In this document: positions 8,991 through 64,000 of the stretch, one piece after another
Layout: each line of letters begins with the position of its first letter
Position numbering within the stretch: the first letter of the stretch is position 1
Source: an uncultured Candidatus Binatia bacterium
GTDB taxonomy: Bacteria; Desulfobacterota; Binatia; HRBIN30
Length of the DNA stretch: 64,000 nucleotides
Direction: 5' to 3'
NCBI GenBank assembly: GCA_964371655.1
Contig: CAYJOD010000001.1
Coordinates: 84,572-148,571, forward strand
The notes under the pieces: model-generated
Database searches by the model: none
Told to the model about the DNA's origin: nothing
Seen by the model: only the letters and a program-made list of their open reading frames with translations
Made by a program: the position numbers and the translations under genes

Positions 8991-9025
8991 ATCCAGAATA
9001 TAAGATGTGGCGCTGCGTCTTTCGG

Positions 9026-49316: not shown

Positions 49317-49922
49317 ACCCTCTCTCACCACCGCTGCGATCGCGGCAGCGGCGATGGCACCGTGGCGCACGATCCTTACGCGGCCGCGTACATCCACAAT
49401 CGTCGACGCCGGCTCGCCCGGCAGGATCTCATCATCCAGGTAGTAGTCGACGTTGTCGCCGAAATACCTCCGCGCCGCGTCGATGCTGCGCGGCGGCGGC
49501 TGGCCGGCAGGATTGGCGCTCGGCGCCGTCAACGGCTTGTCCAGGGCACGCACCAGCGCGGCGGCGCGCGGATGACTCGACACGCGCACGCCGATGCTAC
49601 CGCTTCCACCGGTCAGCAGTTCCGACAGGTGTGCGCGCGCGGCGAATACGATCGTCAGCGGCCCCGGCCAGAAGCGTTGCGCCAAGAGCTCCGCGGTCTT
49701 CGGAATTTCTGCCGCCACCTGATCGAGCATGTCTAAATCGCGCACCAGCACGGCGATGGGCTTGCCTGCTTCGCGTCCTTTGATCCGCACCAGCCGCTCC
49801 AAGGCCTTGCGATTGAAAGCATCCGCGCCGAGACCATACAGCGTCTCGGTCGGATACACGACGAGGCCGCCGCGACGTAGAATCGCGGCGGCCGCCGCGA
49901 CCGCCGGGTCATGATCCTGCAT
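49302..49922 (-). CDS. tsaC: L-threonylcarbamoyladenylate synthase (TsaC/YrdC type)
   Basis: [47 protein letters not shown] at 49922. Confidence 0.85.
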
Positions 49923-50430
49923 GCTCGCGCTGTCGCTGCAAGCGGGCATCCTTCTCCTCGACCTGGCGTGCGAGCTCGACTTTGAAGACACCGAGCTTGC
50001 GCGCCAGCTCGACATCGCCGAGCGCCAGAATCTGTACGGCAAGAATCGCCGCATTGTCGGCGCCGGCCTTGCCGAGGGCCACGGTGGCGACGGGCACACC
50101 GGCCGGCATCTGCACCGTCGCCAGCAGAGCATCAATACCGCGCAGGCTGCCCACGTCGAGCGGCACACCGATGACCGGCAACGTCGTATGCGCCGCAACC
50201 ACACCCGCCAAATGCGCCGCGACTCCGGCGGCGCAGATGATCACCTGCACGCCGCGCGTCTGCGCCGACGCCGCGTACTTCGCCGTCTTTTCGGGAGAGC
50301 GGTGCGCGGACGCGACGTGGGCTTCGTAGGCGACACCGAACCCGTCGAGGCGCTTGGCAGCCACCGCCATCACCTCCCAGTCGCTGTCGCTTCCCATCAA
50401 GATCGCAACCCGTGGGCTCATCGCGGTCAT
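49909..50430 (-). CDS. purE: N5-carboxyaminoimidazole ribonucleotide mutase
   Basis: [14 protein letters not shown]..., [31 protein letters not shown]. Confidence 0.9.
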
Positions 50431-51704
50431 GCGTGCGCCTCCAAGGCCCGGTGGCCGATGTCTCGCCGATACTGCATTCCGTCCCAGCTGATCTGTTCCA
50501 CCGCCCAGTACGCTTCCCGAACCGCATCGTGCACGCTAACGCCCAATGCCGTCACTCCCAGGACCCGACCGCCGTTGGTAACGATGTCGCCATCACGCTG
50601 CGCGGTGCCGGCGTGGAACACCACTCCACTCTGCCAACCGTGCAGATGCTCGAGGCCGAGGATCAACTTCCCTTTTTCGTAGCCACCGGGGTAGCCACCG
50701 GCAGCGAGAACCACGCAGACGGCGGCGCGCTCGTCCCACTCGACCGTGCACTGGTCGAGGGTGCCGTCGATGCAGGCTTCCATCAATTCGACGATGTCGC
50801 TCTTGAGCCGAATCAGTAGCGCCTGACATTCCGGATCACCGAAGCGCGCATTGAACTCGAGCACCTTCGGACCGGTAGCGGTCATCATCAACCCCGCATA
50901 GAGAACGCCGCGATAATCGATCTTGGCCTCGGCCAGCGCCGCGACCACGGGCTCCATGATCTCGCGCATGACGCGCTCGTGGACAGCCGGGGTCAAGACT
51001 GGTGCCGGGGAATACGCTCCCATGCCGCCGGTATTCGGTCCCTTATCGCCGTCGAAGGCGCGCTTGTGATCCTGCGACGAAGCCAGCGGCAACGCCGTAC
51101 GGCCATCGGTGAGCGCCATGAAGGAGACCTCTTCGCCTTCGAGAAACTCTTCGACGACGATGCGAGCGCCGGCGTCGCCGAAAATGCGCGAGCGCAAAAT
51201 CTCGTCGACGGCCTCCTCGGCTTCCTTCATGGTCTGACAGATGAACACGCCCTTGCCCGCCGCCAAGCCGTCGGCCTTCACAACCAACGGCGGACCAACC
51301 TCGTTGACGTAGCGCTTGGCGTCGTCGGCCTCGGTAAAGGCGCTGAAGTATCCGGTTGGAATCTCCTGCCGCCGCAGCAGCTCCTTGGTGAAGACCTTGC
51401 TGCCTTCGAGCTGCGCTCCGTCACGATTGGGCCCGAACACGCGCAGGCCGTGGCGCTGGAACTCGTCGACGATCCCCAAGGTAAGCGGCAGCTCCGGCCC
51501 GACCACGGTGAGATCGATGCGCTCGTCGCGCGCGAAGCGCGCCAGCGCCGCCACATCGTCGGCCGAGATTGAAACCAGCTCGGCGACCGCGGCGATGCCA
51601 CCGTTGCCCGGCGCACAGAAGACGCGGCTGACACGCGGCGACTGCCGAATCTTCCAAGCCAGCGCGTGTTCGCGCCCGCCGCTGCCGATCACCAGTACCT
51701 TCAT
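50427..51704 (-). CDS. purD: Phosphoribosylamine--glycine ligase
   Basis: MKVLVIGSGGREHALAWK. ATP-grasp region. ATGA overlap with purE at 50427-50430. Confidence 0.95.
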   Translation of the reverse strand: MKVLVIGSGGREHALAWKIRQSPRVSRVFCAPGNGGIAAVAELVSISADDVAALARFARDERIDLTVVGPELPLTLGIVDEFQRHGLRVFGPNRDGAQLEGSKVFTKELLRRQEIPTGYFSAFTEADDAKRYVNEVGPPLVVKADGLAAGKGVFICQTMKEAEEAVDEILRSRIFGDAGARIVVEEFLEGEEVSFMALTDGRTALPLASSQDHKRAFDGDKGPNTGGMGAYSPAPVLTPAVHERVMREIMEPVVAALAEAKIDYRGVLYAGLMMTATGPKVLEFNARFGDPECQALLIRLKSDIVELMEACIDGTLDQCTVEWDERAAVCVVLAAGGYPGGYEKGKLILGLEHLHGWQSGVVFHAGTAQRDGDIVTNGGRVLGVTALGVSVHDAVREAYWAVEQISWDGMQYRRDIGHRALEAHA

Positions 51705-51785
51705 GCCCGCCGTCCTAAACTCTCGGCCGCGCCAGTCATCCTACCTCTACCCGTGACTCCACAGAGCCCGAACCGAACCGGGGGT

Positions 51786-51902
51786 AAGGGGGTCAGTCTG
51801 ATTGTCATTCCGAGCCGTCGCATTTTCCGCGGCGAGGAATCTTCCGGGGCCACAGTTGGCACTACAATCCATTGCAGATCCCTCGCTCCGCTCGGGATGA
51901 CA
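51786..51902 (+). repeat. GTCATTCCGAG...GAGGAATCT element, copy 2
   Basis: GTCATTCCGAGCCGTCGCATTTTCCGCGGCGAGGAATCTTCCGGGGCCACAG...AGATCCCTCGCTCCGCTCGGGATGAC, with internal inverted termini. Confidence 0.8.
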
Positions 51903-51937
51903 CCGGGCGAAAACATCAAACCGACCCACCACCGATC

Positions 51938-52043
51938 CGAAAGAAATGGAAAATAAGAAACCGGAAACCGGAGATGGGAAACCGGTGAATTGACCAGTTT
52001 CCGGTCTTCGGTCTCCTGTTTCCGGTTTTCCATTTCCTTTCCG
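51938..52043. repeat. GGAAAC-rich palindromic element, copy B
   Basis: CGAAAGAAATGGAAAATAAGAAACCGGAAACCGGAG ... CGGTCTCCTGTTTCCGGTTTTCCATTTCCTTTCCG, between purD and purH. Confidence 0.8.
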
Positions 52044-52085
52044 TGCTGCTCAAGTCATCTCCAGTATGGGACTAGAGGTACACTC

Positions 52086-53648
52086 TCAATGCCGGAAATG
52101 CCTGACACCGGTAAACACCATGGCCACGCCGAGCGCGTCGGCTGCCTTGATCACCTCTTCGTCACGCACGCTGCCGCCGGGTTGAACCACCGCCGTGGCT
52201 CCGGCCTTGGCGGCCTCCTCCACTCCGTCGGGGAATGGAAAGAAGGCGTCGCTCGCCAGCACCGAGCCCTGCAACGAGATGCCGACACGGCCCGCCTTCG
52301 CGCGCGCCGCATGAATCGGATCGACGCGCGAGGTCGCACCGCCGCCGAGAGCGAGCGTACCGTGCGCATTCACGAAGGCGATGGCATTCGACTTCACGTG
52401 CTTGACAACCTTGAGGCCGAAGCCGAGCCCAGCCAACTCCTGCGGGCTCGGCGCGCGCTTGGTGACAAGCTTCGCCTTGCTTACATCTTCCATCGCCGCG
52501 TCGCTCTCCTGTACGAGAACGCCGCCGAAGACGCCGCGTACTTCGAGACGCGCCGCGCGCATGACCTGAGGATGCCAACACATGAGGCGGCGGTTCTTCT
52601 TCTTTTGCAGGAACTCGAGTGCATCGGGTGCGAACTCGGGGGCGATGAGCACCTCTGTGAAGATCTCGTCCACCTCGCGGGCCAGGTCCAACGTCCACGG
52701 TCGATTGCTGATCAGTATACCGCCGAACGGAGAATCCGGATCGGTGGCGAAGGCGCGTCGATACGCTTCCAAGCCGCCCGTCCCGGTGCCGACACCGCAC
52801 GGCGTATTGTGCTTGAGGATGGCCACGACGGCGGCGGCGTCATCGACGAACTCCATCATCAGGTGGAGCGCGGCGTTGATGTCGAGGATGTTGTTGTAGG
52901 AGAGCTCCTTGCCGTGCAGTTGCTCGACGGCGCGAAAGAAGTTGCCGTACAGCGCCGCGCCCTGATGCGGATTCTCGCCGTAGCGCAGATCCTGTGCCTT
53001 CTTCAGACCGACGTGTAGGGTTTCACCGAAGCGGATGCGCTTGCCCTCGGCGTCGAAGCCACCGAGGTAGTCGGCAATCGCACCATCGTAGACCGCCGTC
53101 GTCTGGAACGCCTTGCGTGCCAGCCGCGTGTTCGTGGCGGCCGACACACGACCGTCGCCGGCGCGCATCTCCGCGAGCACCGTGCCGTAGTCGGCGGGAT
53201 CAACGACGACGGTGACGTCGTGGTGATTCTTGGCCGCCGAGCGCACCATCGAGGGGCCGCCGATATCGATGTTCTCGATGGCATCCTCGAAGCTGCAATC
53301 CGGCTTCGCCACCGTGGCCTCGAACGGATAGAGGTTCACCACCACCAGATCGATTGGGCGAATGTTGTTGGCCTCCATCTGTTGGCGGTGATTGGCGTCG
53401 TCTCGTCGTCCGAGCAAGCCACCGTGGATCTTCGGATGCAGCGTCTTGACGCGCCCGTCGAGAATTTCGGGCGAGCCGGTGAAGTCACTGACAGCAATCA
53501 CCGCAACGCCGTTGTCGGCGAGCAGCTTCGCGGTACCGCCGGTGGAAAGGATTTCGACACCGAGCTCACGCAGTCCTGTGGCGAACTCGACCAACCCGGC
53601 TTTGTCACTAACACTGATCAGGGCTCGCGTGATCCTACCCATGCGCAC
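52086..53648 (-). CDS. purH: Bifunctional AICAR transformylase / IMP cyclohydrolase
   Basis: RALISVSDKAGLVEFA (MGS-like domain), KTLHPKIHGG, C-terminal AICARFT region. Confidence 0.95.
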   Translation of the reverse strand: MRMGRITRALISVSDKAGLVEFATGLRELGVEILSTGGTAKLLADNGVAVIAVSDFTGSPEILDGRVKTLHPKIHGGLLGRRDDANHRQQMEANNIRPIDLVVVNLYPFEATVAKPDCSFEDAIENIDIGGPSMVRSAAKNHHDVTVVVDPADYGTVLAEMRAGDGRVSAATNTRLARKAFQTTAVYDGAIADYLGGFDAEGKRIRFGETLHVGLKKAQDLRYGENPHQGAALYGNFFRAVEQLHGKELSYNNILDINAALHLMMEFVDDAAAVVAILKHNTPCGVGTGTGGLEAYRRAFATDPDSPFGGILISNRPWTLDLAREVDEIFTEVLIAPEFAPDALEFLQKKKNRRLMCWHPQVMRAARLEVRGVFGGVLVQESDAAMEDVSKAKLVTKRAPSPQELAGLGFGLKVVKHVKSNAIAFVNAHGTLALGGGATSRVDPIHAARAKAGRVGISLQGSVLASDAFFPFPDGVEEAAKAGATAVVQPGGSVRDEEVIKAADALGVAMVFTGVRHFRH

Positions 53649-53748
53649 ACTCCTCTATGCCACCGAAACACCCGCAACGCCTCGAACCGAAGAACTCTAA
53701 CCCTTTCCCAAGGGAGACTGTCGATTATCTCCGCGACCGGCCGTCGCT

Positions 53749-53857: not shown

Positions 53858-54333
53858 CATTTATCGACAGTCTCAACGGGAGAGAGGAGCTTGCGTTCCG
53901 TCCTCTCCTCCTGAGAATCGTAATCCCTCGATCTCCTCGACGACCCCACCAGCCGCCACCTGTTTGCGCGGCGGCAAGCGAGCCCGCGCCTGCAGCTTCA
54001 CCGTCGCCACTGGCCTCGACGGCAGCGATCTCCGCTACACATTGGCCACGCGCAGCGGCAAGATCAATTACCGCGCGGATGCTGCATCCAGCTGCTGGTG
54101 GTGCCATCGCAAGTGAAGGTCGCCGAGTTACCAAAGGCATCCCGTGATGTAAAGACAGCGACCGCCGCAGGCAGTCACTCTCAAAGCTTAAAAGTGGACC
54201 TCGGAGCGCGGCGGCGACAGGCCGCTTGGCATTGCGCAATGTCAGCCTCGACTTCTCATCCAGGTCACCACAGAGACACAGAGGACCTAGCGCGAGCTGA
54301 CACCCGCAACCCACGCAGGTGTTTAGCAGCACC

Positions 54334-54413
54334 CCCTCTCCCGCATCACTGCGGGAGAGGGAGTGCTTCCAAACACCGGTGTTGCTTGGGTTGCGGGCGT
54401 CAGCCCGCGCTGT
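54334..54413 (+). repeat. 80-nt hairpin-containing element, copy upstream of the cytochrome cluster
   Basis: CCCTCTCCCGCATCACTGCGGGAGAGGGAGTGCTTCCAAACACCGGTGTTGCTTGGGTTGCGGGCGTCAGCCCGCGCTGT. Near-identical to 63885-63965. Confidence 0.85.
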
Positions 54414-54606
54414 ACCTCTGTGGTGAGAAATCCGGGTTCGGGATCCTATCCGCTTGTGCCAGCACGTCCAACTCTTGACCTCCCACGATACACCTGCCCT
54501 CAAATTCAGACACTCGGGCTCGGCGCGGCACCGTAATCGAAACGAACGGTTTCGGGGCATGCGCCTTGCTCTCGCCCGTGATCCAACAAGCGAGCCGATT
54601 TCTACA

Positions 54607-55572
54607 ATGATTGCCAACCTTGAACTCTCGCTCCTCGACGAGGAGCCGAACCGCAGCAGTCGCGCCCTCGACCAATCGTCGCCAGCGCCCGAGACGATCC
54701 TGCGCTTTGCCCTCGCGGAGCGACTGCTGCACTGGGCGATCGCGATCCCGTTTCTCGGTTGCCTCCTCAGCGCCGTGGTATTGATCGTCGTCTACAATCC
54801 CGATCCCACGCGTGCCTACCGCTCGCTCTTTGCCTGGGTGCACCGCGGCTGCGCCGTGGGTTTGCTGGTGTGCCCGAGCCTGGTCCTGCTCGCGAGCGTG
54901 CGCCACGCGCGGCTGTTCTTCTACAATTTCCGCCAGGGATGGGTGTGGAGGTTCGACGACATCAAGTGGCTCGTCTTGATGGGGCCGGCTACGCTGTTCA
55001 AGCGCATCACTTTGCCTGACCAGGGCAAGTTCAACGCTGCCGAGAAGCTCAACTTCATGATGGTGACGGTCTTTCCGTTTCTCTTTGCCGCAACCGGTCT
55101 CTTGATCTGGTTTCCCGACGCCAGCCAGCTCGGCGCTTTCACCCCATGGATCATCCACTGCGCCCTCGCCGCGCTCGCCATGCCCCTAGTCCTTGGTCAC
55201 ATGTTCATGGCCACGGTTAACCCCGACACTCGCGTCGGGTTGACGGGGATGATCAGCGGCTTCGTCAGCCGCGAATGGGCTGCACACCACTATGCTCGCT
55301 GGTTTCGCGAGCAGTTTCCCCATCTGGTTCATGAATGTGCCGACGAGAACCCCGAGCTGGCGCCGCAGCCGCTTGCACGCGCCACGGTCGACGCCGCAGT
55401 TGAGATTTACGGACCGCGCTTTATCGCTGACGAGACCGAGGATGACACATTCCCGGAGTACAACGACGACGAGAGAGAGATCATCACTGCCGCGTGCGCA
55501 GAAGATTCAGCAGATGCCCTGAGTTGTGAGGCCTCGTCGCCAGCTGGTGATGACGCGGCCCACAACTATTGA
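54607..55572 (+). CDS. Membrane b-type cytochrome, FdnI/cytochrome-b561 (PF01292-like) family, with acidic C-terminal tail
   Basis: ERLLHWAIAIPFL, FNAAEKLNFMMV, and His in later helices (IIHCALAALAMPLVLGHMF). 4-5 TM helices. ATG 54607. Confidence 0.7.
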   Translation: MIANLELSLLDEEPNRSSRALDQSSPAPETILRFALAERLLHWAIAIPFLGCLLSAVVLIVVYNPDPTRAYRSLFAWVHRGCAVGLLVCPSLVLLASVRHARLFFYNFRQGWVWRFDDIKWLVLMGPATLFKRITLPDQGKFNAAEKLNFMMVTVFPFLFAATGLLIWFPDASQLGAFTPWIIHCALAALAMPLVLGHMFMATVNPDTRVGLTGMISGFVSREWAAHHYARWFREQFPHLVHECADENPELAPQPLARATVDAAVEIYGPRFIADETEDDTFPEYNDDEREIITAACAEDSADALSCEASSPAGDDAAHNY

Positions 55573-55883
55573 TGAACCGCCGTCCCATCCTGAAGCTCGA
55601 CTTCAGACTCCAGGCCTCAGGCTTCTAAATTTTCATCGCACCCGCCCTGAAGCCGGAAGCCCGCGAGCTCTGATCGCGAAGGATCAGGCATCCGCTCGAC
55701 GCCCGACTCGCCAGAAACGCAACTAGACGACGCGATCTATGGCATTTCCAACCGTCCGCGTTGGAACTGTCAGTGATACGCGAGCGCGCCACACTGCAGG
55801 TTGTGGCGTGGGATCACCAGAACACTGTCATCGTTAAGTGACTCCCGGTCATCTGCGCACTCGCGAACAGATCCTCCTACTCG

Positions 55884-55900
55884 GGGCACACGCCTTGCTC
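55884..55900 (+). promoter_or_regulatory. Sigma-54-like -24/-12 element upstream of the multiheme operon (weak call)
   Basis: GGGCACACGCCTTGCTC. The GG (55885-55886) and GC (55897-55898) are separated by 10 nt. It lies about 105 nt upstream of the start at 56004/56007. Confidence 0.35.
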
Positions 55901-56003
55901 AACGGGCAAACGAACATGGGTCGCCGGTCATTATGAGTGCAGCGGGAGCGGAGGTGGCCGGGAGGTCTGTGGCGGTTGGAATTCTCTATGCTGAGCACAA
56001 GTA

Positions 56004-57392
56004 GTGATGGCGGGCCGAAGCTTGTCCGCGGCACGAGCCATCTCCTATCTCGTCATGCTTGCGACCGCGCCAAGCCTGTGGGCAGCGCCGGCCGCCGTCG
56101 CCGCGTGGCCCGAGTCGCTGGTCATGCCTGGTGAGGTCGTGGAGAAGCACGCGCGCGTCGAGGCGGAGTGCATGAAGTGTCACGCTCCACTCAACAAGGC
56201 GGCACAGGATCCGCTCTGCCTCGACTGTCACAAAGACGTGGCCGCGGATCTGGCTCAGAAGCGCGGGTTCCATGGGCAGGAGCCTACCGTCGGTGGCCGG
56301 CGTTGCGGGACCTGTCACGCAGAGCATAAGGGCAGAAGCGCCAACATCCTGCCACTGAACCGAGAAACGTTTGATCATCGCCATACCGTCATGCCCCTGC
56401 GTGGCGAGCACACGAAAGTGCGCTGTGAAAACTGCCACCTCGCCGGCAAGCGCTATCGCGAGGCGTCACCACAGTGCAACGATTGCCACGCGCGCAAGGA
56501 CCCGCACCAGACCACCCTGGGAACGAGCTGCGATAGCTGCCATGCGCCGTCCGCTTGGAAGACGGTGCGTTTCGATCACGACACCGCGCCGTTCCGGCTG
56601 GAAGGGCGGCATCGTGAGACGCATTGCGACAGCTGCCACAAGACCAAGCTCTTCAAAGCTACGGCAACCGACTGCTGGTCGTGCCACGGACCGAAAGACA
56701 AGCATCGCGGCAGCTTTGGAAGTAACTGCCAGTCGTGCCACACACCGACGCGGAAGTGGTCGGCGACGGAGTTCGACCACGCGCACAAGACACAGTTCGT
56801 CTTGGTGAGCCGCCACGCCAGCACGGGTTGCGAGAAGTGTCACCGCGATGGCCTCGCCGCGAAGCTTACACCTACGGCATGCTTCGGCTGCCATGAGCGC
56901 AACGACGGCCACCACGGGCAGTACGGGCGCGCCTGCGAGACGTGCCACGTTCCGACCGACTGGAAGCGTCCGACGTTCGTGCACGACCGCGACACGCATT
57001 TCTCGCTGCGCGGGCGGCATAAAGAGAACCGCTGCGCCGACTGTCACCGTGGCAACCCGCGCGAGGAGCACCTCGATAAGAGCTGCATCACCTGTCATCG
57101 CAACGACGACGTTCATCACGGCCGGCAGGGGGCGCGTTGCGACAAGTGCCATGACGAGCGCGGCTGGAGTCGCGACGTGCTCGTCGATCATGACGCAACC
57201 AAGTTCCCATTGACGGGCGCGCACACGCGCGTCACCTGCATCGGCTGCCATCCATCCCCCGTCTTCAAGGGCGTCGCGCGCGAATGCGTGTCGTGTCACG
57301 AGCGCGACGGTGTCCAACGCTGCCGGCGCGGCCCCGAGTGCGAGCGCTGCCATGAGACATCCACCTTCCGTCTGGTGCGAGCCCCGCAATGA
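56004..57392 (+). CDS. 18-heme c-type cytochrome built from tandem cytochrome-c7-like triheme modules
   Basis: 18 CxxCH motifs counted. Recurrent module FDH..H...C.xCH....C.DCH...D.H.G..G..C..CH. Signal peptide AISYLVMLATAPSLWAAPA. Confidence 0.9.
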   Translation: MMAGRSLSAARAISYLVMLATAPSLWAAPAAVAAWPESLVMPGEVVEKHARVEAECMKCHAPLNKAAQDPLCLDCHKDVAADLAQKRGFHGQEPTVGGRRCGTCHAEHKGRSANILPLNRETFDHRHTVMPLRGEHTKVRCENCHLAGKRYREASPQCNDCHARKDPHQTTLGTSCDSCHAPSAWKTVRFDHDTAPFRLEGRHRETHCDSCHKTKLFKATATDCWSCHGPKDKHRGSFGSNCQSCHTPTRKWSATEFDHAHKTQFVLVSRHASTGCEKCHRDGLAAKLTPTACFGCHERNDGHHGQYGRACETCHVPTDWKRPTFVHDRDTHFSLRGRHKENRCADCHRGNPREEHLDKSCITCHRNDDVHHGRQGARCDKCHDERGWSRDVLVDHDATKFPLTGAHTRVTCIGCHPSPVFKGVARECVSCHERDGVQRCRRGPECERCHETSTFRLVRAPQ

Positions 57393-60142
57393 TGAACCAC
57401 GGGACAGAGGCGCGCGTCGCAGCCCACCACAGCGCGGTTCACACTGGGCGACGCCGGGTACCGCGCCCGCATGGGCACGTTCCGATTGCGCTGCTGTGCT
57501 TCGTCATCGCCCTTCCCGCTGCCGCCCTTGCCGTTTGCGGAGGAGGCGGGACATCGCGTCTTCCGCTTCCCGCGGTCACGCATTTGCGCAGCTACCGCGC
57601 CCCATTCAGCGTTCCGACACGAATGGCGGTCGATGCATCCGGGAACGTGTACGTCACCGACCCGGGACTCGGCCAGGTCATCGTGCGCGCCCCGAACGGG
57701 CGCATCATCTCGCGGGTCGGTGGTCTCGGACATCCAGTCAGCGTTGCGGTGGGCAGCGCCGGTCGCATCTACGTCGGCGATACGGCATCCGGCAGCGTCA
57801 CCGCGTTCAACGCAGAATGGCAGAAGCTCCTAGAGTTGGGGCGCGGCGCCGGCGAGTTTCTGCAGCCCAGCGACGTGGCCGTCGATGCGGCAACCGGCAA
57901 CCTTTACGTCGCCGACAGCGCGGCGCAGCTCGTCAAAGTTTACACGGCTGCCGGCACCTTCGTACGCAGCTTTGGCGGTCATGGGAGTGGCGACGGCCAG
58001 TTCGACTTCCCCGTCGGAGTCTTCGTCGACGCGGCGGCGCACCAGGTCTTGGTCGCAGATCAACTGAACTATCGCATTCAGATCTTCGACGTCGCGGGCA
58101 ACTTCCTGTCCTGCTTCGGGGCGCAGGGAAGCGGACCGGGCAATTTCAACCTGCCGCAAAGCGTGTCGAGCGACCGCGCCGGTCGCATCTACGTCGCCGA
58201 CTCCGTTGAAGGGCACATTCAGGTGCTCGACCGCAGCGGCGGATTCGCCGGCTACATTGGCGATTTCGGCGACGCTGCCGGGCAGCTGCGCATTCCCATC
58301 GGAATGGTCATCGATCCGTCCAACCGGTTATTCGTCGCCGCCGCGAACAACGCGCGCCTGGAGGTGTTTGGGTTGGACGCGTTCGCCGACCCCGAGACCA
58401 TCCTGCCCGCCGTGGTCCACCTGGAACCCGAGCTCATCGACAAGGCGGCCCCGGCGACCAACGTCGCGAGTTATATCGAAGTGCCCGGATATTCACTCGA
58501 CTCGGTTGTCTCCGGCAGCATTTCGGCCAACGGCATCTCGACCGCCACGGTTCCGATCTCGGTGGGCGATCACGACGGCAATGGCGACCCCGACCTGCGC
58601 GTCGAGTTTCCGCGTGCAGCGTTGCTGGCGACGCTACCACCCGACGGTGCCGCTACGGTGACTGTGACCGGCCGCCTCGGAACCAAGCAGTTCGAAGCCG
58701 CGGCCGTGCTCCACATCACCACTTGCGCAGCTGGAACCATCTGTTCGCTTGGCGTTGCGGAGCCACAGTGCAACGAGGCCGTCTGCATCGCTGCCGTCGG
58801 CTGCACCATACAGCGCAAACCCGACGGTACTCGATGCGAAGACGGAAACGCCTGCACGATCGACGACGTTTGCGGCGCCGGCGTCTGCGCCGGAGCAGGA
58901 TTGCCCTGCGACGACGGCAATGCGTGCACCGACGACAGCTGCGACCCCACCGGCGGCTGTGTGCACACGAACAATTCCGAGCCGTGCGATGATGCGAACG
59001 CCTGCACGTCCTTAGACAAGTGTGCGGGAGGAACCTGCGGTGGTACGTCGCTTGGCTGCGACGACGCTAACGTATGCACGGACGACACCTGCGACCCGGT
59101 GCATGGTTGTGCTCACACGAACAATGCCGAGCCTTGTGACGATGGCAACGCCTGCACCAGTGCGGACAGGTGTGCGGCAGGCGTCTGTGCCGGCGTAGCG
59201 ATTCGCTGCGATGGCGGGGATGTGTGCAGCAAGGGCAGCTGCGATCCGGCGCGTGGCTGTATCCACGCCTATACCAGCGCGTCCTGCAATGACGCCGATC
59301 CCGGCACCGTAGGCGACGCGTGCGACGGCGCCGGCAGCTGCGTCGGCACCGCGGTTACCGGGCGCTATGCGCTTCTGCGTTGGCCCCTGGACGCTTCCCG
59401 CCACGGCGCGCCGACCCGCATGCGCAAGGGCCTCATCCATGGCGACGTCTGCGCCGAGAGCCTCCGAGTAGGACCGCTCAGCCAGATTCAGGGAGACATG
59501 GTGGCCTGGGCTCGCGACGGCTGGGCTATTGAGTTCAGTGGTCAGAGTCAGATCGCCGGCAACGTGGTCACAGGCGGCGGGACAATCGTGGGGATCAACC
59601 CGGTGGCCGTCCGCGGCCGTGTCGACGTCTTTGGCCGCGGCACCGAGCTGGCGCAATGCTTCGCGGCTCGTTATCGCGCCACACAGCGCCGAGGCGACTT
59701 CGGCGCCCTTCCCCCGACGCCCGGTTTCGCGCTGGGACTAATTCAGCTGAATCCGGGAGGCAATCAGCGCCTTCCGTCCACCGGAGAATTCGCGAGTGGA
59801 CAGACGGTGATCGAGATCACCGAGCTGCGTCTGGATTCATCGAGCACGCTGACGCTGGCGGGGACGCCGGCCACGGGAGCGGTGATCGTCCACATCCGCA
59901 ACCGGATGTTGGTCGGACGTGGCGCGCGCATCGCTCTCGATGGGTTGGCGCCCGAGCGGCTGCTTTTCGTAATCGACGGATCGGTCATCCTGAGGCCACA
60001 AGCGAGCGTCGTCGGCTCGGTGTTCGCGGCGAAGCGCGTGCACATGGGCAGCGCCAGCGCCATCACCGGGGCACTGCTCGGCAGTGTCATCCATCTGTCC
60101 CCATCCGCCACCATAGACCTTCACCCGTTCGTGGGATGGTAA
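57389..60142 (+). CDS. NHL-repeat beta-propeller protein fused to Ig-like, tandem Cys-rich (CxDGNxCTxDxC) and C-terminal beta-solenoid-like regions; possible lipoprotein
   Basis: Six NHL-like blades (e.g. GQFDFPVGVFVD, GNFNLPQSVSSDRAGRIYVADS, GQLRIPIGMVID) at residues about 75-328. Cys-rich repeats at residues about 446-651. C-terminal 260 aa resembles DUF3494/choice-of-anchor solenoids. AALAVCGG near the N-terminus. ATGA overlap with the 18-heme gene. Confidence 0.85.
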   Translation: MMNHGTEARVAAHHSAVHTGRRRVPRPHGHVPIALLCFVIALPAAALAVCGGGGTSRLPLPAVTHLRSYRAPFSVPTRMAVDASGNVYVTDPGLGQVIVRAPNGRIISRVGGLGHPVSVAVGSAGRIYVGDTASGSVTAFNAEWQKLLELGRGAGEFLQPSDVAVDAATGNLYVADSAAQLVKVYTAAGTFVRSFGGHGSGDGQFDFPVGVFVDAAAHQVLVADQLNYRIQIFDVAGNFLSCFGAQGSGPGNFNLPQSVSSDRAGRIYVADSVEGHIQVLDRSGGFAGYIGDFGDAAGQLRIPIGMVIDPSNRLFVAAANNARLEVFGLDAFADPETILPAVVHLEPELIDKAAPATNVASYIEVPGYSLDSVVSGSISANGISTATVPISVGDHDGNGDPDLRVEFPRAALLATLPPDGAATVTVTGRLGTKQFEAAAVLHITTCAAGTICSLGVAEPQCNEAVCIAAVGCTIQRKPDGTRCEDGNACTIDDVCGAGVCAGAGLPCDDGNACTDDSCDPTGGCVHTNNSEPCDDANACTSLDKCAGGTCGGTSLGCDDANVCTDDTCDPVHGCAHTNNAEPCDDGNACTSADRCAAGVCAGVAIRCDGGDVCSKGSCDPARGCIHAYTSASCNDADPGTVGDACDGAGSCVGTAVTGRYALLRWPLDASRHGAPTRMRKGLIHGDVCAESLRVGPLSQIQGDMVAWARDGWAIEFSGQSQIAGNVVTGGGTIVGINPVAVRGRVDVFGRGTELAQCFAARYRATQRRGDFGALPPTPGFALGLIQLNPGGNQRLPSTGEFASGQTVIEITELRLDSSSTLTLAGTPATGAVIVHIRNRMLVGRGARIALDGLAPERLLFVIDGSVILRPQASVVGSVFAAKRVHMGSASAITGALLGSVIHLSPSATIDLHPFVGW

Positions 60143-60150
60143 GGCCGCCA

Positions 60151-61536
60151 ATGAAGCGAAGGCGAATACCCGATTGGTGGCTGTGTCTGGCGTTGGCGTG
60201 CATCGCCAGCGCTGCAGCCCAGGCACTCGACCCGCCCCACGACGCGAGCAAGTCGATCGATTGCGCCAACTGCCACATCACGCACCACGCCCCCGGTGGC
60301 GCAATCACCACGGTTGGCGGGAATCCGAACCTGTGCATCAGCTGCCATACCGCGGGCGGGCTGGCGTCCGCCAAACCATTTGCCAACAGCGACGAAGCGA
60401 TCCCAGGAACCAGCGGCACCTCGCATCGGTGGGACTCCGGCGTGGCGGGTTGGGTCAAGACGAATTCCGCGAACACCTCGCCAGGCACCGTGCAGTCGGG
60501 AGGCAGTTTCACCGGGCGTTACCGCAAGGCGTACACGATCACCATCAGCAGCGCCGGTGATGCAGGCACGGCGCTGTTCAATTGGACCACGTCCAATCTC
60601 GTCGGCCTGACGTACGTGGATGCGTTTGCGGCCATCGCCTACAACGGCAGCAGCGGGACGCAGGCGTGGACCGCGAGCCCCTGGCAGGAGATCGTCGAGG
60701 CCGACGGGCCGGCCGCGGGCTTCGTCCAAGTGGTGGCCAACGTCGCCTGTGCCAGCGGCGATTGCCTGCGGATCGGCGGCGGAACGATCGATACGCGCGG
60801 GTTGCAACGCCCGGCGAACGTAAGCGGCGCCACGGCGGCCACGCTGACCTTCAGCTACCGCCGGCAGCTGGCCACATGTCCGAACACCAGCACCGCCAAC
60901 GTCGCTCTCCAAGTCAGCAGTAACGGAACGACCTGGGCTACACTCGCTACCTACAATTTGAACAATTGCGATGCCGTCCCGGTCGCGCAGGTCTTCGACC
61001 TCACCCCTTACATCGCCGCCGCCACGCGGATCCGCTTTGTCGGCGTCGGCACCACCGCTGCCACCGATTTCAGCTACATCGACAATGTCCAGATTCAATA
61101 CGTGGTCTCCGGTCGTGGGGCCACGAACGTCACCTCCGGCGCCAGCGTGGGCCTGGATGAAGGTATCACCGTCACCTTCAACAGTGGGACGCCGTCGCCG
61201 TCGTTCAGGCTGAACGATCAATGGACCGTTTTCGCTAGCGCCGATATCAACCAGCCGACCACGCCCGCCTTGGCGGCGCGCATGACTGGCGGCGTCGCGA
61301 CGTGCTCGACGTGTCACAACGAACACAGCCAAGTGGGTGAGCCCTTCGATCTTGCCGCCCCCGCGTATCCGGTGCCGGGACCCGGCGGGGTCGGACGCCA
61401 TTACCAGCGCACCGACGACGACATCAATCAGATGTGCGCCGATTGCCACAGCACCCGTAAGGTGACGGCGTCTTCACAGGGATCCCACCCGGTCGGCGTC
61501 GTGATCCCCAGCATTGGTCCGTTCAAGAATCCCTAG
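60151..61536 (+). CDS. Secreted tetraheme cytochrome c with large non-heme insert domain
   Basis: Signal peptide [45 protein letters not shown] (CxxCHxxH style). Insert at residues about 155-317 is shared with the next protein. Confidence 0.85.
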
Positions 61537-61543
61537 GTTCACA

Positions 61544-63691
61544 ATGAAACGGATCATCCTGCTCCTTGGTTTCTGTTGTACGGCGGTGGCACCGCAGATG
61601 GTCGGTGTCGCGGCGGCGCAGAGCACCTACCGCGACAACTTCAACTCGGCCGTCTACAGCGGCTCGAACGGTACAGCGAGCTGGACGAGCTCGCCCTGGG
61701 TCGAAAGCGACGACGCGGGCGGAGGTGCGACGGGTGGAAACATCTTCGTCGTTACCGCGAGCGGCTGCCCGCAAGGGACCTGCCTGAACGTCAGCGCGGT
61801 CGATGTTCCTGACCAGATCTACCGACAGGCCGATCTCAGCGCCGCCACGGCGGCTACGCTTACCTACACGTACTGCCACGACAGCGCACCCGGTTCTGTC
61901 GTCGCGGAGATTTCCTACAACGGCGGCAGCAACTGGACGACGGTTGCCACCTACTCGAGCCAGAGCACGTGCCCGAGCACGCAGAGCTTCACACTCACCC
62001 AGTTCACCAGCAACACGCGGCTGCGCTTCCGCGTCACGGCGACCGGTGGCGCGATCCTCTACGTCGATCAGGTACAGTTCGCCTTTTCCACGGGAGCGGT
62101 CGTGTCGCCGACCGCGACTCTGACCAGAACGCCCTCGGCGACGACTACGCCCACTCTCACGGCGACGCGAACGCCAACCACTCCGTCGACGCCGACGCCG
62201 ACGAATACTCCCACGAGAACCGCAACCAACACCCCGACAGGGCCGACCGGCACGCCGACGCGCACGCCAACGATTACCCAGACAGCGACAATTACCCAGA
62301 CGTTCACGATCACGCGGACGCCTACGGTGACCAACACGCCGACCCGAACGCCGACGGGACCCACGGCGACGATCACCGCGACAGCAACGATCACTCCGAT
62401 TCCGAACGCGTTCCCCCTGCCGCTCGACAAGAAGACGGCCGCGGTCCGGTGCATGACGTGCCACAACGTGCACTACCAGGGAGCCGGCGCCGGCATGCTG
62501 CTGCGCAGCGGGAACACGAACGCCCTGTGCACCGACTGCCACACCCTGGCCGACACCACGACACCGGCAGCGCATCTCAACGCCTCGACAGGCGCGTTGT
62601 GGCCCGGCCCGAAATACGGAACGCTTTTCCCGGCTATCACCGACACGACCCAGCGTGGCGCGTGCTCCAACTGTCACCGCTCACATGGGTGGCCGGATGA
62701 GGGCAATCCCGGCCAGGACTATCCAACCCTGCTGGTCAATCGCGAGGAGAACCTCTGCTACACGTGCCACGACGGTACCGTGACGCCGAAGAACCTGCTG
62801 GTTCAATTCACGAAGAGCTACCGCCATCCGGTACCGGACTACAGCGGCCGTCACAGCACGAGCGAAGATGGAGCTCCGTCCGCCTACGGCACCGCGAATC
62901 GTCACTCCGAGTGTGCCGACTGTCACAACCCTCATCTAGTCAATGCCGATGCGACCGCTCCGAGCGCCCCCACGGCCTCGAACCGGATCCGTGGCGTCAG
63001 CCGGATTGCCGTGGCCAATGGCGCGGCGGGGACGGTCCCGACGTACACCTACCGTGGACCCAACGACGCCACCGCCCCGATCACCGAATACCAGCTGTGC
63101 TTCAAGTGCCACTCGTCGTGGACGACGCAGCCCGCGGGCCAGTCGAACACCGCCGTGCAGTTCAACAGCAACAACCGCTCCTACCATCCCGTCGAAGCAC
63201 AGGGGAAGAACACCAACATCAACGTCAACTCATTTGCGAACGGGTGGACGGGGACCAGCGCCATGTACTGTAGCGACTGTCACAGCGGAGATGACGCAAC
63301 TGTCCGCGGCGCGCATGGGTCGCAATACCGGTACATCCTCAAGCAGGCGTCGATTGCCAGCAGCAGCAGCCGGACCACAGCCTCCACCGAGCTGTGCTTC
63401 AATTGCCACTCGTACAACACCTACGCCAACACCGGCGCCACCACGACCCAGGAAAACTACAGTCGCTGGTCTTCGGCCGGCAGCCAAGACAACGGACACA
63501 CGGCGCACGTGGTCAACCATCGAGCCCCCTGTTACGCGTGCCACGCCTCGCACGGTGTGGCCACGCAGCCGCACTTGATCGTCACCGGCCGCAGCCCGGG
63601 CATCAACACCTACACGGAAACAACCAACGGTGGGACCTGCTCCCCCACCTGCCACGGCACAGAGAGTTACACGATCACCTATGCGCGTTGA
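61544..63691 (+). CDS. Secreted multiheme cytochrome c (9 CxxCH + 1 CxxxCH) with N-terminal non-heme domain and Thr/Pro linker
   Basis: Signal peptide [27 protein letters not shown]. Shared domain at residues 29-181. T/P-rich linker at about 186-283. Heme motifs CMTCH, CTDCH, CSNCH, CYTCH, CADCH, CFKCH, CSDCH, CFNCH, CYACH, CSPTCH. Confidence 0.85.
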
Positions 63692-63884
63692 ACCATCCAT
63701 CGCGGCAAACATCCCTTTTCGTGCGCCGCGCGTATCATCGGCAAGCACCAGGGGTGCCCTCTGTCGGGAAGACACTGGGCGCCAAGGCCAGCTCCCCTCG
63801 CCCGCGCCACTTCCGGCGCGGGAGAGGGTTAGGGTGAGGGCCATCGTGAGGAAGCATTGTGAACAATCGGATCCCTCACCCCCA

Positions 63885-63965
63885 CCCTCTCCCGCGGGTA
63901 TTGCGGGAGAGGGAGTGCTTCCAAACACCGGTGCTGCTTGGGTCGCGGGCGTCAGCCCGCGCTGT
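63885..63965 (+). repeat. 80-nt hairpin-containing element, copy downstream of the cytochrome cluster
   Basis: CCCTCTCCCGCGGGTATTGCGGGAGAGGGAGTGCTTCCAAACACCGGTGCTGCTTGGGTCGCGGGCGTCAGCCCGCGCTGT. Same orientation as 54334-54413. Confidence 0.85.
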
Positions 63966-64000
63966 GAAGACGGGGGCTACCCGGGGCGAACGGGGTTCGA

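What the first reader, a model, noticed from the sequence alone, without database searches (positions are those of the whole stretch)
54607..63691. b-cytochrome + 31 c-heme sites + NHL propeller in one compact cluster: candidate non-canonical extracellular electron-transfer system
Seen in sequence: five co-directional genes. The first is an FdnI/b561-like membrane cytochrome (54607-55572). After a 431-nt gap comes a four-gene block with essentially no intergenic space: an ATGA overlap at 57389-57392, an 8-nt gap at 60143-60150 and a 7-nt gap at 61537-61543. The block encodes an 18x CxxCH cytochrome, a 917-aa NHL/Cys-rich/solenoid protein, a 4x CxxCH protein and a 9x CxxCH (+1 CxxxCH) protein. 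All four have signal-like N-termini. Established knowledge: a quinol-oxidising inner-membrane cytochrome, then a periplasmic heme wire, then large outer cytochromes is the logic of Geobacter (CbcL/ImcH, c7 polymers, Omc proteins) and Shewanella (CymA, Mtr) pathways, and NHL proteins are often neighbours of Geobacter cytochromes. Inference: this is an extracellular electron-transfer conduit. Its composition does not match a described one: no MtrB/OmbB-like porin gene is visible in the window, the outer cytochromes carry an unassigned non-heme domain, and the NHL protein has an unusual fusion architecture.
Basis: partly seen in the sequence, partly recalled or inferred. Interest (0 to 1): 0.8.

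Follow-up and report, generated by a model that had tools for sequence, protein, structure and literature searches.

The report
Front end of cytochrome-nanowire electron-export cluster
The five genes are real and form the first part of a 12-gene cluster, cut off by the window edge, that most likely moves electrons between the cell membrane and solids outside the cell; the cluster is a decorated variant of the known OmcE/Uet cytochrome-nanowire type, in a probable Binatia bacterium.

Summary
Genes A to E lie at the stated coordinates, with 18 + 4 + 9 CxxCH motifs plus one CxxxCH, and the ATGA overlap and the 8-nt and 7-nt gaps are correct.

The cluster does look like an extracellular electron-transfer system, but "no porin, non-canonical composition" is an artefact of the window edge. 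The same contig continues with seven more genes:
- an NHL lipoprotein;
- a tetraheme homologous to the OmcE nanowire subunit (PDB 7TFS, 9YUQ);
- a triheme c7 and a nonaheme c7;
- a 670-aa protein modelled with confidence as a roughly 30-strand outer-membrane barrel;
- a second NHL protein;
- an undecaheme whose N-terminus is a complete OmcE domain.

This is the parts list of the published OmcE and Uet clusters, and like the Desulfuromonadia OmcE clusters it sits beside purHDE.

Gene A plus gene B is a Cbc-like module. The pair is fused in one Verrucomicrobia genome and adjacent in three of three other contigs checked.

D and E are two halves of a widespread 14-heme cytochrome. Here it is split and carries lineage-specific beta-sandwich domains and a Thr/Pro linker.

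All 12 genes keep their order in a related genome, and C to L do in a Candidatus Binatia MAG. Verdict: a new variant of a known kind, of moderate interest.

The parts
49909..53648 (-). purE (49909-50430), purD (50427-51704) and purH (52086-53648): the genomic context immediately upstream of the cluster.
   Evidence: Pfam GARS and AICARFT/IMPCHase families are recorded for the called genes. purE was identified from its sequence (my reading, no family search was run on it). Desulfuromonadia OmcE clusters are reported to sit next to purHDE.
54556..54570 (+). Sigma-54-type -24/-12 promoter-like motif (GGCATGCGCCTTGCT), ending 36 nt before the ATG of gene A.
   Evidence: It is one of only two matches to GGCAY-N5-TTGCW in the 64-kb window; the chance mean is 0.57 and 11 of 100 shuffles give at least two. 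A consensus TGGCAC-N5-TTGC lies upstream of the A homologue in L007. A sigma-54 activator gene lies next to the A homologue in L088. Function is inferred.
54607..55572 (+). Gene A: a four-helix, probably diheme cytochrome b of the FdnI/HydC (Ni_hydr_CYTB) superfamily with an acidic C-terminal tail. Proposed quinol/quinone-coupled inner-membrane subunit.
   Evidence: PF01292 E 4e-14. TIGR01583 scores 83.6 bits, below its 115.85 cut-off. Four TM segments. Invariant H42, H79, H184 and H198 in 20 homologues. Homologues are directly followed by a c7-polymer cytochrome in three of three contigs and are fused to one in L035.
55885..55899 (+). Second sigma-54-type -24/-12 promoter-like motif (GGCACACGCCTTGCT), ending 104 nt before the start of gene B.
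   Evidence: It lies within a 20-nt direct repeat shared with the motif upstream of gene A (18 of 20 identical).
56004..57392 (+). Gene B: an exported 18-heme cytochrome made of six tandem c7-type triheme repeats. Proposed periplasmic wire and partner of A.
   Evidence: 18 CxxCH. Six repeats with three motifs each. PF14522 E 1.6e-20. Signal peptide by inspection. 61% identical orthologue in the same position in L007.
57389..60142 (+). Gene C: an NHL beta-propeller, probably a lipoprotein (Cys50). Its domains in order are an Ig-like region, five Cys-rich Dicty_CTDC repeats and an ice-binding-like C-terminal region.
   Evidence: the Ig-like Big_1 and Ice_binding hits are below threshold. The lipoprotein Cys is conserved in orthologues P0197, P0226 and P0237. 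NHL + 14-heme gene pairs occur in eleven GTDB loci; the pair is flanked by unrelated ORFs in the three gammaproteobacterial loci examined. The full architecture is seen in only a few 50%-identity clusters.
60151..61536 (+). Gene D: an exported tetraheme that is the N-terminal part of a split 14-heme cytochrome. A small beta-sandwich interrupts it, and a ~170-aa CBM/discoidin-like domain is inserted into that sandwich.
   Evidence: 4 CxxCH. Most homologues carry the D segments and the E heme domain in one ~710-aa protein, with 13 CxxCH counted by the script. D residues 154-317 are 36% identical to E residues 28-181. Weak Reelin_subrepeat-B and F5/8-type-C hits. The AF2 model is confident only for the small sandwich.
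61544..63691 (+). Gene E: an exported protein. In order it has a second copy of the CBM-like domain, a ~100-aa Thr/Pro-rich linker, and a 10-heme domain paralogous to hemes 3-12 of the downstream undecaheme L.
   Evidence: 9 CxxCH + 1 CxxxCH. The linker is 65% T+P+S. E residues 292-713 align with L residues 173-568 (30% identity, E 3e-36). Profile-profile probability 100%, E 8e-78. Weak CBM_6 and Reelin-B hits.
63692..64000 (.). Start of the 388-nt spacer between gene E and the next cluster gene F. The cluster continues beyond the window end.
   Evidence: L001 is identical to the window over their overlap and continues with genes F to L. The spacer contains a G-rich palindromic element of a kind seen elsewhere in the window.

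Best explanation
**What it is.** The five genes are the 5' part of a 12-gene cluster of about 19 kb (A to L) in a Gram-negative bacterium, probably a member of Binatia. The cluster encodes an envelope-spanning extracellular electron-transfer system with three modules.

1. **A + B: a Cbc-type inner-membrane module.** A is a diheme cytochrome b that exchanges electrons with the quinone pool. B is an exported 18-heme c7 polymer that carries them into and across the periplasm.
2. **C + D + E: an NHL-propeller lipoprotein and a 14-heme cytochrome.** In this lineage the cytochrome is split in two and carries two CBM-like beta-sandwich domains and a Thr/Pro linker. This is proposed to be a surface-exposed terminal or substrate-contacting unit.
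3. **F to L, beyond the window: an OmcE/Uet-type outer-membrane module.**
   - F and K are NHL propeller lipoproteins.
   - G is an OmcE-homologous tetraheme.
   - H and I are c7-type periplasmic cytochromes.
   - J is a roughly 30-strand outer-membrane barrel.
   - L is an undecaheme made of a full OmcE domain plus an eight-heme extension.

**Shown.** Gene content, domain identities, the barrel fold of J, the homology of G and L to OmcE, and the conservation of gene order and of the A-B pairing.

**Inferred.** The quinol coupling, the location of D and E outside the cell, filament formation by G, sigma-54 control, and the direction of electron flow (reduction of external acceptors or uptake from donors), which cannot be decided.
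For: **The cluster continues beyond the window.**
- Genes F to L lie on the same contig.
- All 12 genes are in the same order, at 49-70% identity, in GTDB genome CAITLU010000013 (L007).
- C to L are in the same order in Candidatus Binatia MAG GCA_044450645.1, and the cluster ends after L there.

**The outer-membrane module matches known systems.**
- G matches the D. soudanensis OmcE bundle 9YUQ (E 2.7e-21) and the G. sulfurreducens OmcE filament 7TFS (E 1.2e-18).
- A profile of the L family matches full-length OmcE at E 1.2e-40.
- The AF2 model of J has pLDDT 88 and pTM 0.75 and is almost entirely long antiparallel strands. Its Foldseek hits are all large outer-membrane barrels.
- A J-family ORF lies within 10 kb of the cytochrome in 44 of 80 loci from many phyla.
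- Literature: the minimal OmcE cluster is two multiheme cytochromes, two propeller lipoproteins, OmcE and a large barrel, next to purHDE. The Uet cluster has the same kinds of parts.

**A and B work together.**
- They are fused in one ORF in L035.
- A homologues are directly followed by a c7 polymer, with NHL and cytochrome genes alongside, in three of three long contigs.
- Four histidines in the TM helices are invariant.
- Geobacter Cbc clusters provide a precedent.

**D and E.**
- They are halves of a widespread 14-heme protein.
- That protein family is homologous to the L family.

**Export.**
- Export signals are present.
- The Cys-rich repeats and the Thr/Pro linker are typical of extracytoplasmic proteins; this last point rests on my own knowledge.
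Against: - There are no expression, heme-staining or localisation data.
- A is separated from B by 431 nt and may be transcribed separately. Both have their own promoter-like motif.
- In several Gammaproteobacteria the NHL + 14-heme pair occurs without any J-type barrel within 10 kb. The C-D-E module therefore does not strictly need this barrel, and its location is open.
- The inserted domain of D could not be modelled with confidence (pLDDT 58).
- No sequence from Ca. Tenderia, D. ferrophilus, or Geobacter Cbc or Osc proteins was available for direct comparison. Those relationships rest on parts lists.
- The Binatia assignment rests only on the names of the closest homologues (65-71% identity).
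Confidence: 0.75

Rival explanations
1. The system works in reverse. It takes up electrons from Fe(II), reduced minerals, a cathode or a syntrophic partner and delivers them to the quinone pool. It would not be a metal-reducing conduit.
For: - The Uet cluster, which has the same parts list, was defined in the cathode-oxidising electroautotroph Ca. Tenderia and is found in iron-oxidising Gallionella.
- NHL-plus-cytochrome clusters of D. ferrophilus are induced during electron uptake.
- CbcBA-type modules are proposed to run in reverse in Seep-SRB2.
Against: - OmcE clusters are equally present in the Fe(III)-reducing Desulfuromonadia.
- Nothing in the sequence fixes the direction.
- The metabolism of this organism was not reconstructed.
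Confidence: 0.35
2. Only F to L form the envelope-spanning conduit. C, D and E are a separate NHL + 14-heme pair with another role, for example a periplasmic or surface redox enzyme or a sensor.
For: - The NHL + 14-heme pair occurs in eleven GTDB loci. In three of them (Gammaproteobacteria L019, L032, L076) it is flanked by unrelated ORFs, and no J-type barrel lies within 10 kb.
- NHL/SGL propellers include enzymes (Pfam SGL and Arylesterase hits).
Against: - In the lineage of this window, C to E are always sandwiched between A-B and F-L in the same orientation, and B-C-D-E are tightly packed.
- E's heme domain is a paralogue of the barrel-associated undecaheme L.
- No catalytic motif or cofactor site was identified.
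Confidence: 0.15
3. Gene A is an ordinary formate dehydrogenase (or hydrogenase or thiosulfate reductase) gamma subunit that merely happens to lie next to the cytochrome cluster.
For: - The best NCBIfam hit is TIGR01583, formate dehydrogenase gamma.
- Public annotations of its homologues say 'formate dehydrogenase subunit gamma'.
- A 431-nt gap separates A from B.
Against: - The score of 83.6 bits is below the curated cut-off of 115.85.
- No formate dehydrogenase alpha or beta gene was found among the window ORFs scanned, and the genes directly upstream of A are purE, purD and purH.
- Homologues at 53-58% identity are directly followed by a c7 polymer in three of three contigs.
- The two are fused in L035.
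- The A-B order is conserved in L007.
Confidence: 0.05

Closest known systems
OmcE cytochrome-nanowire gene cluster of Desulfuromonadia (Geobacter sulfurreducens OmcE, PDB 7TFS; Desulfuromonas soudanensis WTL OmcE bundle, PDB 9YUQ; bioRxiv 10.1101/2025.10.22.684050)
   Same: - It has an OmcE-homologous tetraheme (G).
- It has two beta-propeller lipoproteins (F and K).
- It has a large outer-membrane beta-barrel (J).
- It has additional multiheme cytochromes.
- It sits directly next to purH, purD and purE.
   Different: - The OmcE-like parts lie outside the window.
- This cluster adds a cytochrome b + 18-heme module (A, B), a third and much larger NHL lipoprotein (C), and a split 14-heme cytochrome with CBM-like domains (D, E).
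- Its undecaheme L contains a whole OmcE domain. The preprint says no OmcE-like protein with extra hemes is encoded in the OmcE operons it studied.
- Filament formation is untested here.
Uet (undecaheme electron transfer) cluster of Ca. Tenderia electrophaga and Gallionella (bioRxiv 10.1101/2022.05.06.490989; PMC10734462)
   Same: - Tetraheme (UetA / G).
- Large barrel with more strands than MtrB (UetC predicted at 28 strands; J about 30).
- c7 trihemes (UetD, E, G / H, and I as three fused domains).
- Two NHL proteins (UetH, I / F, K).
- An undecaheme directly after an NHL gene (UetJ / L).
   Different: - There is no PPIase (UetB) and no cupredoxin (UetF) here.
- No ccsAB, nrfG or bat genes follow L in the related contigs.
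- The gene order differs.
- Uet has no reported cytochrome b + c7-polymer module and no 14-heme + NHL pair.
- Sequence-level homology to Tenderia proteins could not be tested.
Geobacter Cbc-type quinol:cytochrome c oxidoreductases (CbcL, a b-c fusion; CbcBA and other Cbc clusters; bioRxiv 10.1101/2021.04.15.440034)
   Same: [quoted passage not shown]
- A relative (L035) has the two fused, as in CbcL.
- The promoter-like motifs resemble sigma-54 sites, and the cbcBA operon is sigma-54 dependent.
   Different: - The c-type partner here is an 18-heme c7 polymer with its own signal peptide. CbcL has a 9-heme domain and CbcA is a 7-heme protein.
- Homology of A to CbcL or CbcB was not tested.
- No functional data exist.
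Desulfovibrio ferrophilus IS5 outer-membrane cytochrome clusters DFE_448-451 and DFE_461-465 (PMC5815863)
   Same: Large multiheme cytochromes, including ones with 12 and 14 heme sites, are encoded next to NHL-repeat beta-propeller proteins. They are proposed to act as an outer-membrane electron-transfer complex.
   Different: - Sequence relationship was not testable here.
- No CBM-like domains, gene split or cytochrome b module are described for IS5.
MtrCAB and Geobacter OmaB/OmbB/OmcB porin-cytochrome complexes
   Same: The logic is the same: a periplasmic cytochrome, an outer-membrane barrel and an outer cytochrome.
   Different: - J matches no Pfam or NCBIfam model.
- The DmsE/MtrA-family model TIGR03508 scores 22-74 bits against a cut-off of 192.
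- There is therefore no family membership.

Membership tests
OmcE-type cytochrome nanowire cluster | A tetraheme subunit homologous to OmcE. | tested here: met
   G (L001 13740-14390, beyond the window) matches 9YUQ at E 2.7e-21 and 7TFS at E 1.2e-18 over its full length, with all four CxxCH motifs aligned.
OmcE-type cytochrome nanowire cluster | A large outer-membrane beta-barrel gene in the cluster. | tested here: met
   The AF2 model of J has pLDDT 88 and pTM 0.75 with about 30 long strands. The top 50 Foldseek PDB hits are almost all outer-membrane barrels. J has a signal peptide and ends in -HFF.
OmcE-type cytochrome nanowire cluster | Two beta-propeller lipoproteins. | tested here: met
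   F and K match NHL at E 7e-30 and 1.5e-29. F has an LGGC lipobox and K an LLAAC one (read by eye).
OmcE-type cytochrome nanowire cluster | Position next to purHDE, as in Desulfuromonadia. | tested here: met
   purE, purD and purH lie at 49909-53648, immediately upstream of gene A. This is not conserved in L007.
OmcE-type cytochrome nanowire cluster | The subunit polymerises into an extracellular filament. | not testable with these tools
   This needs cryo-EM of sheared appendages or multimer modelling with hemes.
Uet cluster (Tenderiales) | An undecaheme (UetJ) preceded by NHL genes, together with a tetraheme, c7 trihemes and a barrel of about 28 strands. | tested here: met
   L has 11 CxxCH + 1 CxxxCH and lies directly after K. 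G has 4 hemes, H has 3, and I has 3 x 3 (TIGR04257, E 4e-44). J is the barrel.
Uet cluster (Tenderiales) | PPIase UetB, cupredoxin UetF and the downstream ccsAB, nrfG and bat genes. | tested here: not met
   No such domains occur among F to L. The genes after L in L091 and L092 are unrelated. A PPIase is present in the more distant locus L088.
Uet cluster (Tenderiales) | Sequence orthology to the Ca. Tenderia Uet proteins. | not testable with these tools
   No Tenderia sequence was retrievable, and the single genome scan returned other taxa.
Cbc-type quinol:cytochrome c oxidoreductase | A diheme b-type membrane subunit with conserved His ligands. | tested here: met
   PF01292 E 4e-14. Four TM helices. 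H42, H79, H184 and H198 are invariant, and the last two are 14 residues apart in one helix. Heme binding itself is inferred.
Cbc-type quinol:cytochrome c oxidoreductase | An adjacent or fused periplasmic multiheme c-type cytochrome. | tested here: met
   B lies 431 nt downstream. The pair is directly adjacent in L087, L088 and L089 and fused in L035.
Cbc-type quinol:cytochrome c oxidoreductase | Homology to Geobacter CbcL or CbcB, and quinol oxidase activity. | not tested
   No Geobacter Cbc sequences were at hand, and activity needs biochemistry.
Formate dehydrogenase gamma subunit (FdnI, TIGR01583) | A score above the curated cut-off and adjacent formate dehydrogenase alpha and beta genes. 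| tested here: not met
   The score is 83.6 bits against a cut-off of 115.85. The neighbours are pur genes and cytochromes.
MtrAB / DmsE-family porin-cytochrome | A DmsE/MtrA-family decaheme and an MtrB-family porin. | tested here: not met
   TIGR03508 scores 22-74 bits against a cut-off of 192 for B, D, G and L. J has no family hit at E <= 1.

The most novel reading that the evidence does not exclude
In this cluster, and in the widespread J-K-L module found across at least ten phyla, the undecaheme L is a complete OmcE domain fused to an eight-heme extension. L could therefore be the missing base or cap that couples an OmcE-type filament (G) to the large barrel J. It would dock onto a filament end through the same subunit interface while its extension threads the barrel. 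The split 14-heme pair D and E is a paralogue of L. With its two CBM-like domains and Thr/Pro linker it would be a lineage-specific, substrate-binding terminal unit. Binatia would then be a previously unrecognised electroactive lineage.
Probability: 0.2. Interest if true: 0.75.

Novelty: new variant of a known kind. Interest (0 to 1): 0.45.

Why it matters
**Binatia.** If the cluster is functional, it places an OmcE/Uet-type cytochrome-nanowire and porin system in Binatia. The paper search found no description of extracellular electron transfer in that lineage.

**A complete route in one place.** The cluster encodes a full candidate route from the quinone pool (A, B) to the cell exterior.

**A testable candidate for filament attachment.** How OmcE-type filaments are attached to, or started at, the outer membrane is an open question. 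This cluster offers a candidate: an undecaheme that contains a whole OmcE domain, encoded directly after an NHL lipoprotein gene that follows the barrel gene.

**How outer cytochromes evolve.** The split 14-heme cytochrome shows how they can acquire substrate-binding domains.

**A caveat about method.** 'No porin' claims made from truncated windows are unsafe.

Tried and rejected
1. **Structure of D.** The AF2 model was poor (pLDDT 58). Only the small beta-sandwich was confident, and the inserted domain was not. The Foldseek matches (birnavirus VP2, TM about 0.15) are meaningless. The extra domain therefore remains only weakly assigned (Reelin subrepeat B, CBM_6 and F5/8-type-C, all below threshold).
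2. **Sequence search of B, D and E against PDB.** There was nothing significant for B and only marginal hits for D and E. A profile of the D/E family gave only a marginal match to the last two heme motifs of OmcE (E 6e-4).
3. **Representative-library search with C.** It was swamped by the Cys-rich repeat and by NHL repeats in giant proteins. Only about five clusters share the architecture.
4. **Taxonomy by cluster look-up.** No names were attached to the window's own proteins. The Binatia assignment comes only from named homologues.
5. **Extending the contig beyond L via protein P0140.** Only a 6.4-kb contig was returned. The end of the cluster was inferred from relatives.
6. **Papers on the OmcE structure, archaeal nanowires and the Osc machinery** (PMC9357133, PMC10330847, PMC11845295). 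They are not held, so no comparison with the OmcS-companion (osc) cluster was possible.
7. **Simple sigma-70 promoter and terminator scan.** It found nothing above chance in 53600-64000.
8. **Rfam search.** It found only one tRNA in the window, far from the cluster.
9. **The formate dehydrogenase gamma reading of A.** It was considered and rejected; see the rival explanations.

Full report
**1. The observation**

All five ORFs are present at the reported coordinates.
- The junctions are as stated: an ATGA overlap at 57389-57392, an 8-nt gap and a 7-nt gap.
- Heme-motif counts are exact: B has 18 CxxCH, D has 4, and E has 9 plus one CxxxCH. Residue shuffles of the same proteins give means below 0.3.
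- A matches the prokaryotic cytochrome b561 / Ni_hydr_CYTB family (E 4e-14). It falls below the curated cut-off of the formate dehydrogenase gamma model (83.6 against 115.85 bits).
- A has four hydrophobic helices. Four histidines in them are invariant in 20 homologues: H42, H79, H184 and H198. The last two are 14 residues apart in one helix.
- B is six tandem repeats, each with three CxxCH; five are 65-68 aa and the first is 85 aa. It matches Pfam Cytochrome_C7.
- C has NHL repeats, five Cys-rich Dicty_CTDC repeats and a sub-threshold ice-binding-like C-terminus.
- B, D and E have Sec-type signal peptides on inspection.
- C and its orthologues have a signal sequence ending in a conserved Cys followed by GGGG, which is lipoprotein-like.

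**2. The window cuts the cluster**

Looking up gene E by exact sequence found the same contig in several assemblies. L001 is identical to the window over their overlap. Seven more co-directional genes follow E.

| Gene | Size | What it is | Evidence |
|---|---|---|---|
| F | 361 aa | NHL protein with an LGGC lipobox | |
| G | 217 aa | tetraheme | |
| H | 106 aa | triheme c7 | |
| I | 399 aa | three c7 triheme domains (TIGR04257, E 4e-44) | |
| J | 670 aa | no family hit at all | |
| K | called as 512 aa here, about 350 aa in relatives | NHL protein | |
| L | 589 aa | 11 CxxCH + 1 CxxxCH | |

J has a signal peptide and ends in -HFF. With a 37-sequence alignment, AlphaFold2 gives pLDDT 88 and pTM 0.75 and about 30 long antiparallel strands. 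The top 50 Foldseek PDB matches are almost all large outer-membrane barrels, such as TonB-dependent receptors, LptD and ushers. TM-scores are only about 0.3-0.35, so it is a barrel without a close solved relative.

**3. Relation to OmcE and Uet**

- G matches PDB 9YUQ (E 2.7e-21) and 7TFS (E 1.2e-18) over its full length.
- 7TFS is the G. sulfurreducens OmcE filament. 9YUQ is the D. soudanensis OmcE bundle.
- The first ~200 residues of L also match OmcE (E 1.3e-24). A profile of 12 L orthologues matches OmcE residues 15-231 at E 1.2e-40. L is therefore a whole OmcE domain plus an eight-heme extension.
- The D. soudanensis preprint describes the minimal OmcE cluster as two multiheme cytochromes, two propeller lipoproteins, OmcE and a large barrel, located next to purHDE. 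Here purE, purD and purH lie immediately upstream of gene A.
- The Uet cluster of Ca. Tenderia has the same kinds of parts: a tetraheme, a barrel predicted at 28 strands, three c7 trihemes, two NHL proteins and an undecaheme. It is also reported in Gallionella.
- Its PPIase and cupredoxin are absent here.

**4. Conservation**

A scan of one genome per GTDB species found at least 546 relatives of the E/L cytochrome family, and 80 loci were kept.
- L007 (uncultured bacterium LJ-5-9m_bin-0318) has all 12 genes A to L in the same order at 49-70% identity.
- Most other loci carry an orthologue of L (about 40-46% identity) directly preceded by a K-like NHL gene.
- An HMM of the J family finds a ~650-700-aa ORF within 10 kb in 44 of the 80 loci, 43 of them on the same strand. 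The phyla include Verrucomicrobiota, Planctomycetota, Nitrospirota, Calditrichota, Bacteroidota, Desulfobacterota and Gammaproteobacteria.
- A Candidatus Binatia MAG (GCA_044450645.1) has C to L in the same order, and the cluster ends after L there. A 1.19-Mb contig shows the same ending.
- The closest named homologues of J and A are from Candidatus Binatia (65-71% identity). The source organism is therefore probably a Binatia bacterium. This is an inference.

**5. The A-B module**

- Homologues of A are annotated 'formate dehydrogenase gamma'.
- In three of three long contigs examined, the A homologue is followed directly by a ~600-aa c7-type cytochrome. NHL and cytochrome genes lie nearby, and in L088 a tetraheme, a PPIase and a large protein with no Pfam hit also follow.
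- In a Verrucomicrobia locus (L035) the cytochrome b, an extra TM helix and a 20-heme c7 polymer form a single ORF.
- This is the architecture described for Geobacter CbcL and other Cbc clusters.
- Only two matches to the sigma-54 pattern GGCAY-N5-TTGCW occur in the 64-kb window. One lies upstream of A and one upstream of B, both on the right strand. In shuffles of the window the mean is 0.57 and 11 of 100 give at least two matches, so the count alone is weak; the argument rests on where the two matches lie.
- L007 has a consensus site upstream of its A homologue. L088 has a sigma-54 activator gene next to its A homologue. Sigma-54 control is an inference.

**6. The C-D-E module**

*D and E are two halves of one cytochrome.*
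- Most homologues carry D's N- and C-terminal heme segments and E's heme domain in one protein of about 710 aa. The script counts 13 CxxCH in them, which with the conserved CxxxCH site makes 14 hemes.
- Closer relatives, including the MAG protein P0009 ('Deltaproteobacteria bacterium'), are ~885-aa single proteins with the extra ~170-aa domain inserted.
- In this organism and its nearest relatives the protein is split into D and E. E has gained a second copy of that domain (36% identical to D's) and a ~100-aa linker that is 65% Thr, Pro and Ser.
- In L007 the split is present but E lacks the extra domain.

*What the parts resemble.*
- The extra domain gives only weak hits to Reelin subrepeat B, CBM_6 and F5/8-type-C. 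It could not be modelled with confidence.
- E's heme domain is a paralogue of L residues 173-568. The profile-profile comparison gives probability 100% and E 8e-78.

*Where the module occurs.*
- NHL + 14-heme gene pairs occur in eleven GTDB loci.
- In three gammaproteobacterial loci examined the pair is flanked by unrelated ORFs, and no J-type barrel lies within 10 kb.
- C's Cys-rich and solenoid-like extension is shared by only a few 50%-identity clusters.

**7. Mechanism**

*Shown.* Gene content, domain identities, the barrel model, the OmcE homology, and the conserved synteny and fusion.

*Inferred.*
- A exchanges electrons with quinol or quinone.
- B, H and I carry electrons through the periplasm.
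- J, with L and the propeller lipoproteins F and K, forms the outer-membrane passage.
- G may polymerise like OmcE.
- C, D and E form a surface-exposed, substrate-binding terminal unit.

*Undecided.* The direction of flow is open, because the related systems include both reducers (Desulfuromonadia) and electron-uptake organisms (Tenderia, Gallionella, D. ferrophilus).

**8. Verdict**

The finding is real and is an extracellular electron-transfer cluster. It is not outside the known kinds: it is an OmcE/Uet-type cluster joined to a Cbc-like module and an NHL + 14-heme module. Three features are new:
- the lineage (probably Binatia);
- the split and decorated 14-heme cytochrome;
- the extended NHL lipoprotein.

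The most interesting lead lies outside the window. It is the undecaheme L, an OmcE-domain fusion encoded directly after the NHL gene K that follows the barrel gene J.

Noticed in passing
window 54556-54570 and 55885-55899: These are the only two matches in 64 kb to the sigma-54 -24/-12 pattern GGCAY-N5-TTGCW. They are embedded in a shared 20-nt repeat, and they lie upstream of gene A and gene B on the coding strand. A consensus site also lies upstream of the A homologue in L007 (position 4203).
   Followed up: partly
window 51940-52039, 53753-53856 and 54289-54411: Palindromic elements of about 100-120 nt flank purH and lie upstream of gene A. The purH-flanking ones are rich in GGAAACCGG. The one upstream of A is a nested hairpin containing CCCCCTCTCCCGCA/TGCGGGAGAGGG. 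They look like a REP- or MITE-like repeat family, and similar sequence appears in the E-F spacer and inside the over-long K ORF.
   Followed up: partly
window 1-10000 (integrase at 3284-4465): GC content is 52-57% here against 61-66% in the rest of the window. A phage-type tyrosine integrase and a matrixin-like peptidase (1964-3007) lie in this stretch. It may be an integrated mobile element.
   Followed up: no
window 25612-27614 (minus strand): An NrfD-type membrane subunit and a 4Fe-4S dicluster protein lie side by side, as in polysulfide reductase, Qrc or ACIII-like quinone-interacting modules. This is another candidate respiratory module in the same genome region.
   Followed up: no
L001 20145-21911 (gene L, beyond the window) and orthologues in L007, L028-L086: The widespread undecaheme family has a complete OmcE fold at its N-terminus (profile against 7TFS, E 1.2e-40). 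Its gene almost always lies directly after an NHL gene and near a J-family barrel gene.
   Followed up: partly
L035 13340-16534: In a Verrucomicrobia subdivision 3 MAG, a single ORF fuses the cytochrome b domain, a fifth TM helix and a 20-heme c7 polymer. The two ORFs after it (604 and 256 codons stop-to-stop) have sizes compatible with ResB/CcsB-type maturation proteins; this was not checked.
   Followed up: partly
window 60118-60139 (C-terminus of gene C) and orthologues P0197, P0214, P0226: Orthologues of C share a conserved C-terminal motif, LHPF(V/A)xW. It may be a sorting or anchoring signal of unknown type.
   Followed up: no
L001 18610-20148 (gene K): The called 512-aa product is probably over-extended at its 5' end across a repeat element. 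Relatives have 352-366 aa, and the lipobox LLAAC lies at residues about 182-186 of the long ORF.
   Followed up: partly
window 14614-16860 and 17789-19489 (minus strand): Two large proteins lie here. One has DUF6851 and a vanadium-chloroperoxidase-like helical domain. The other has galaxin-like repeats. Neither is related to the cluster, and neither was explored.
   Followed up: no
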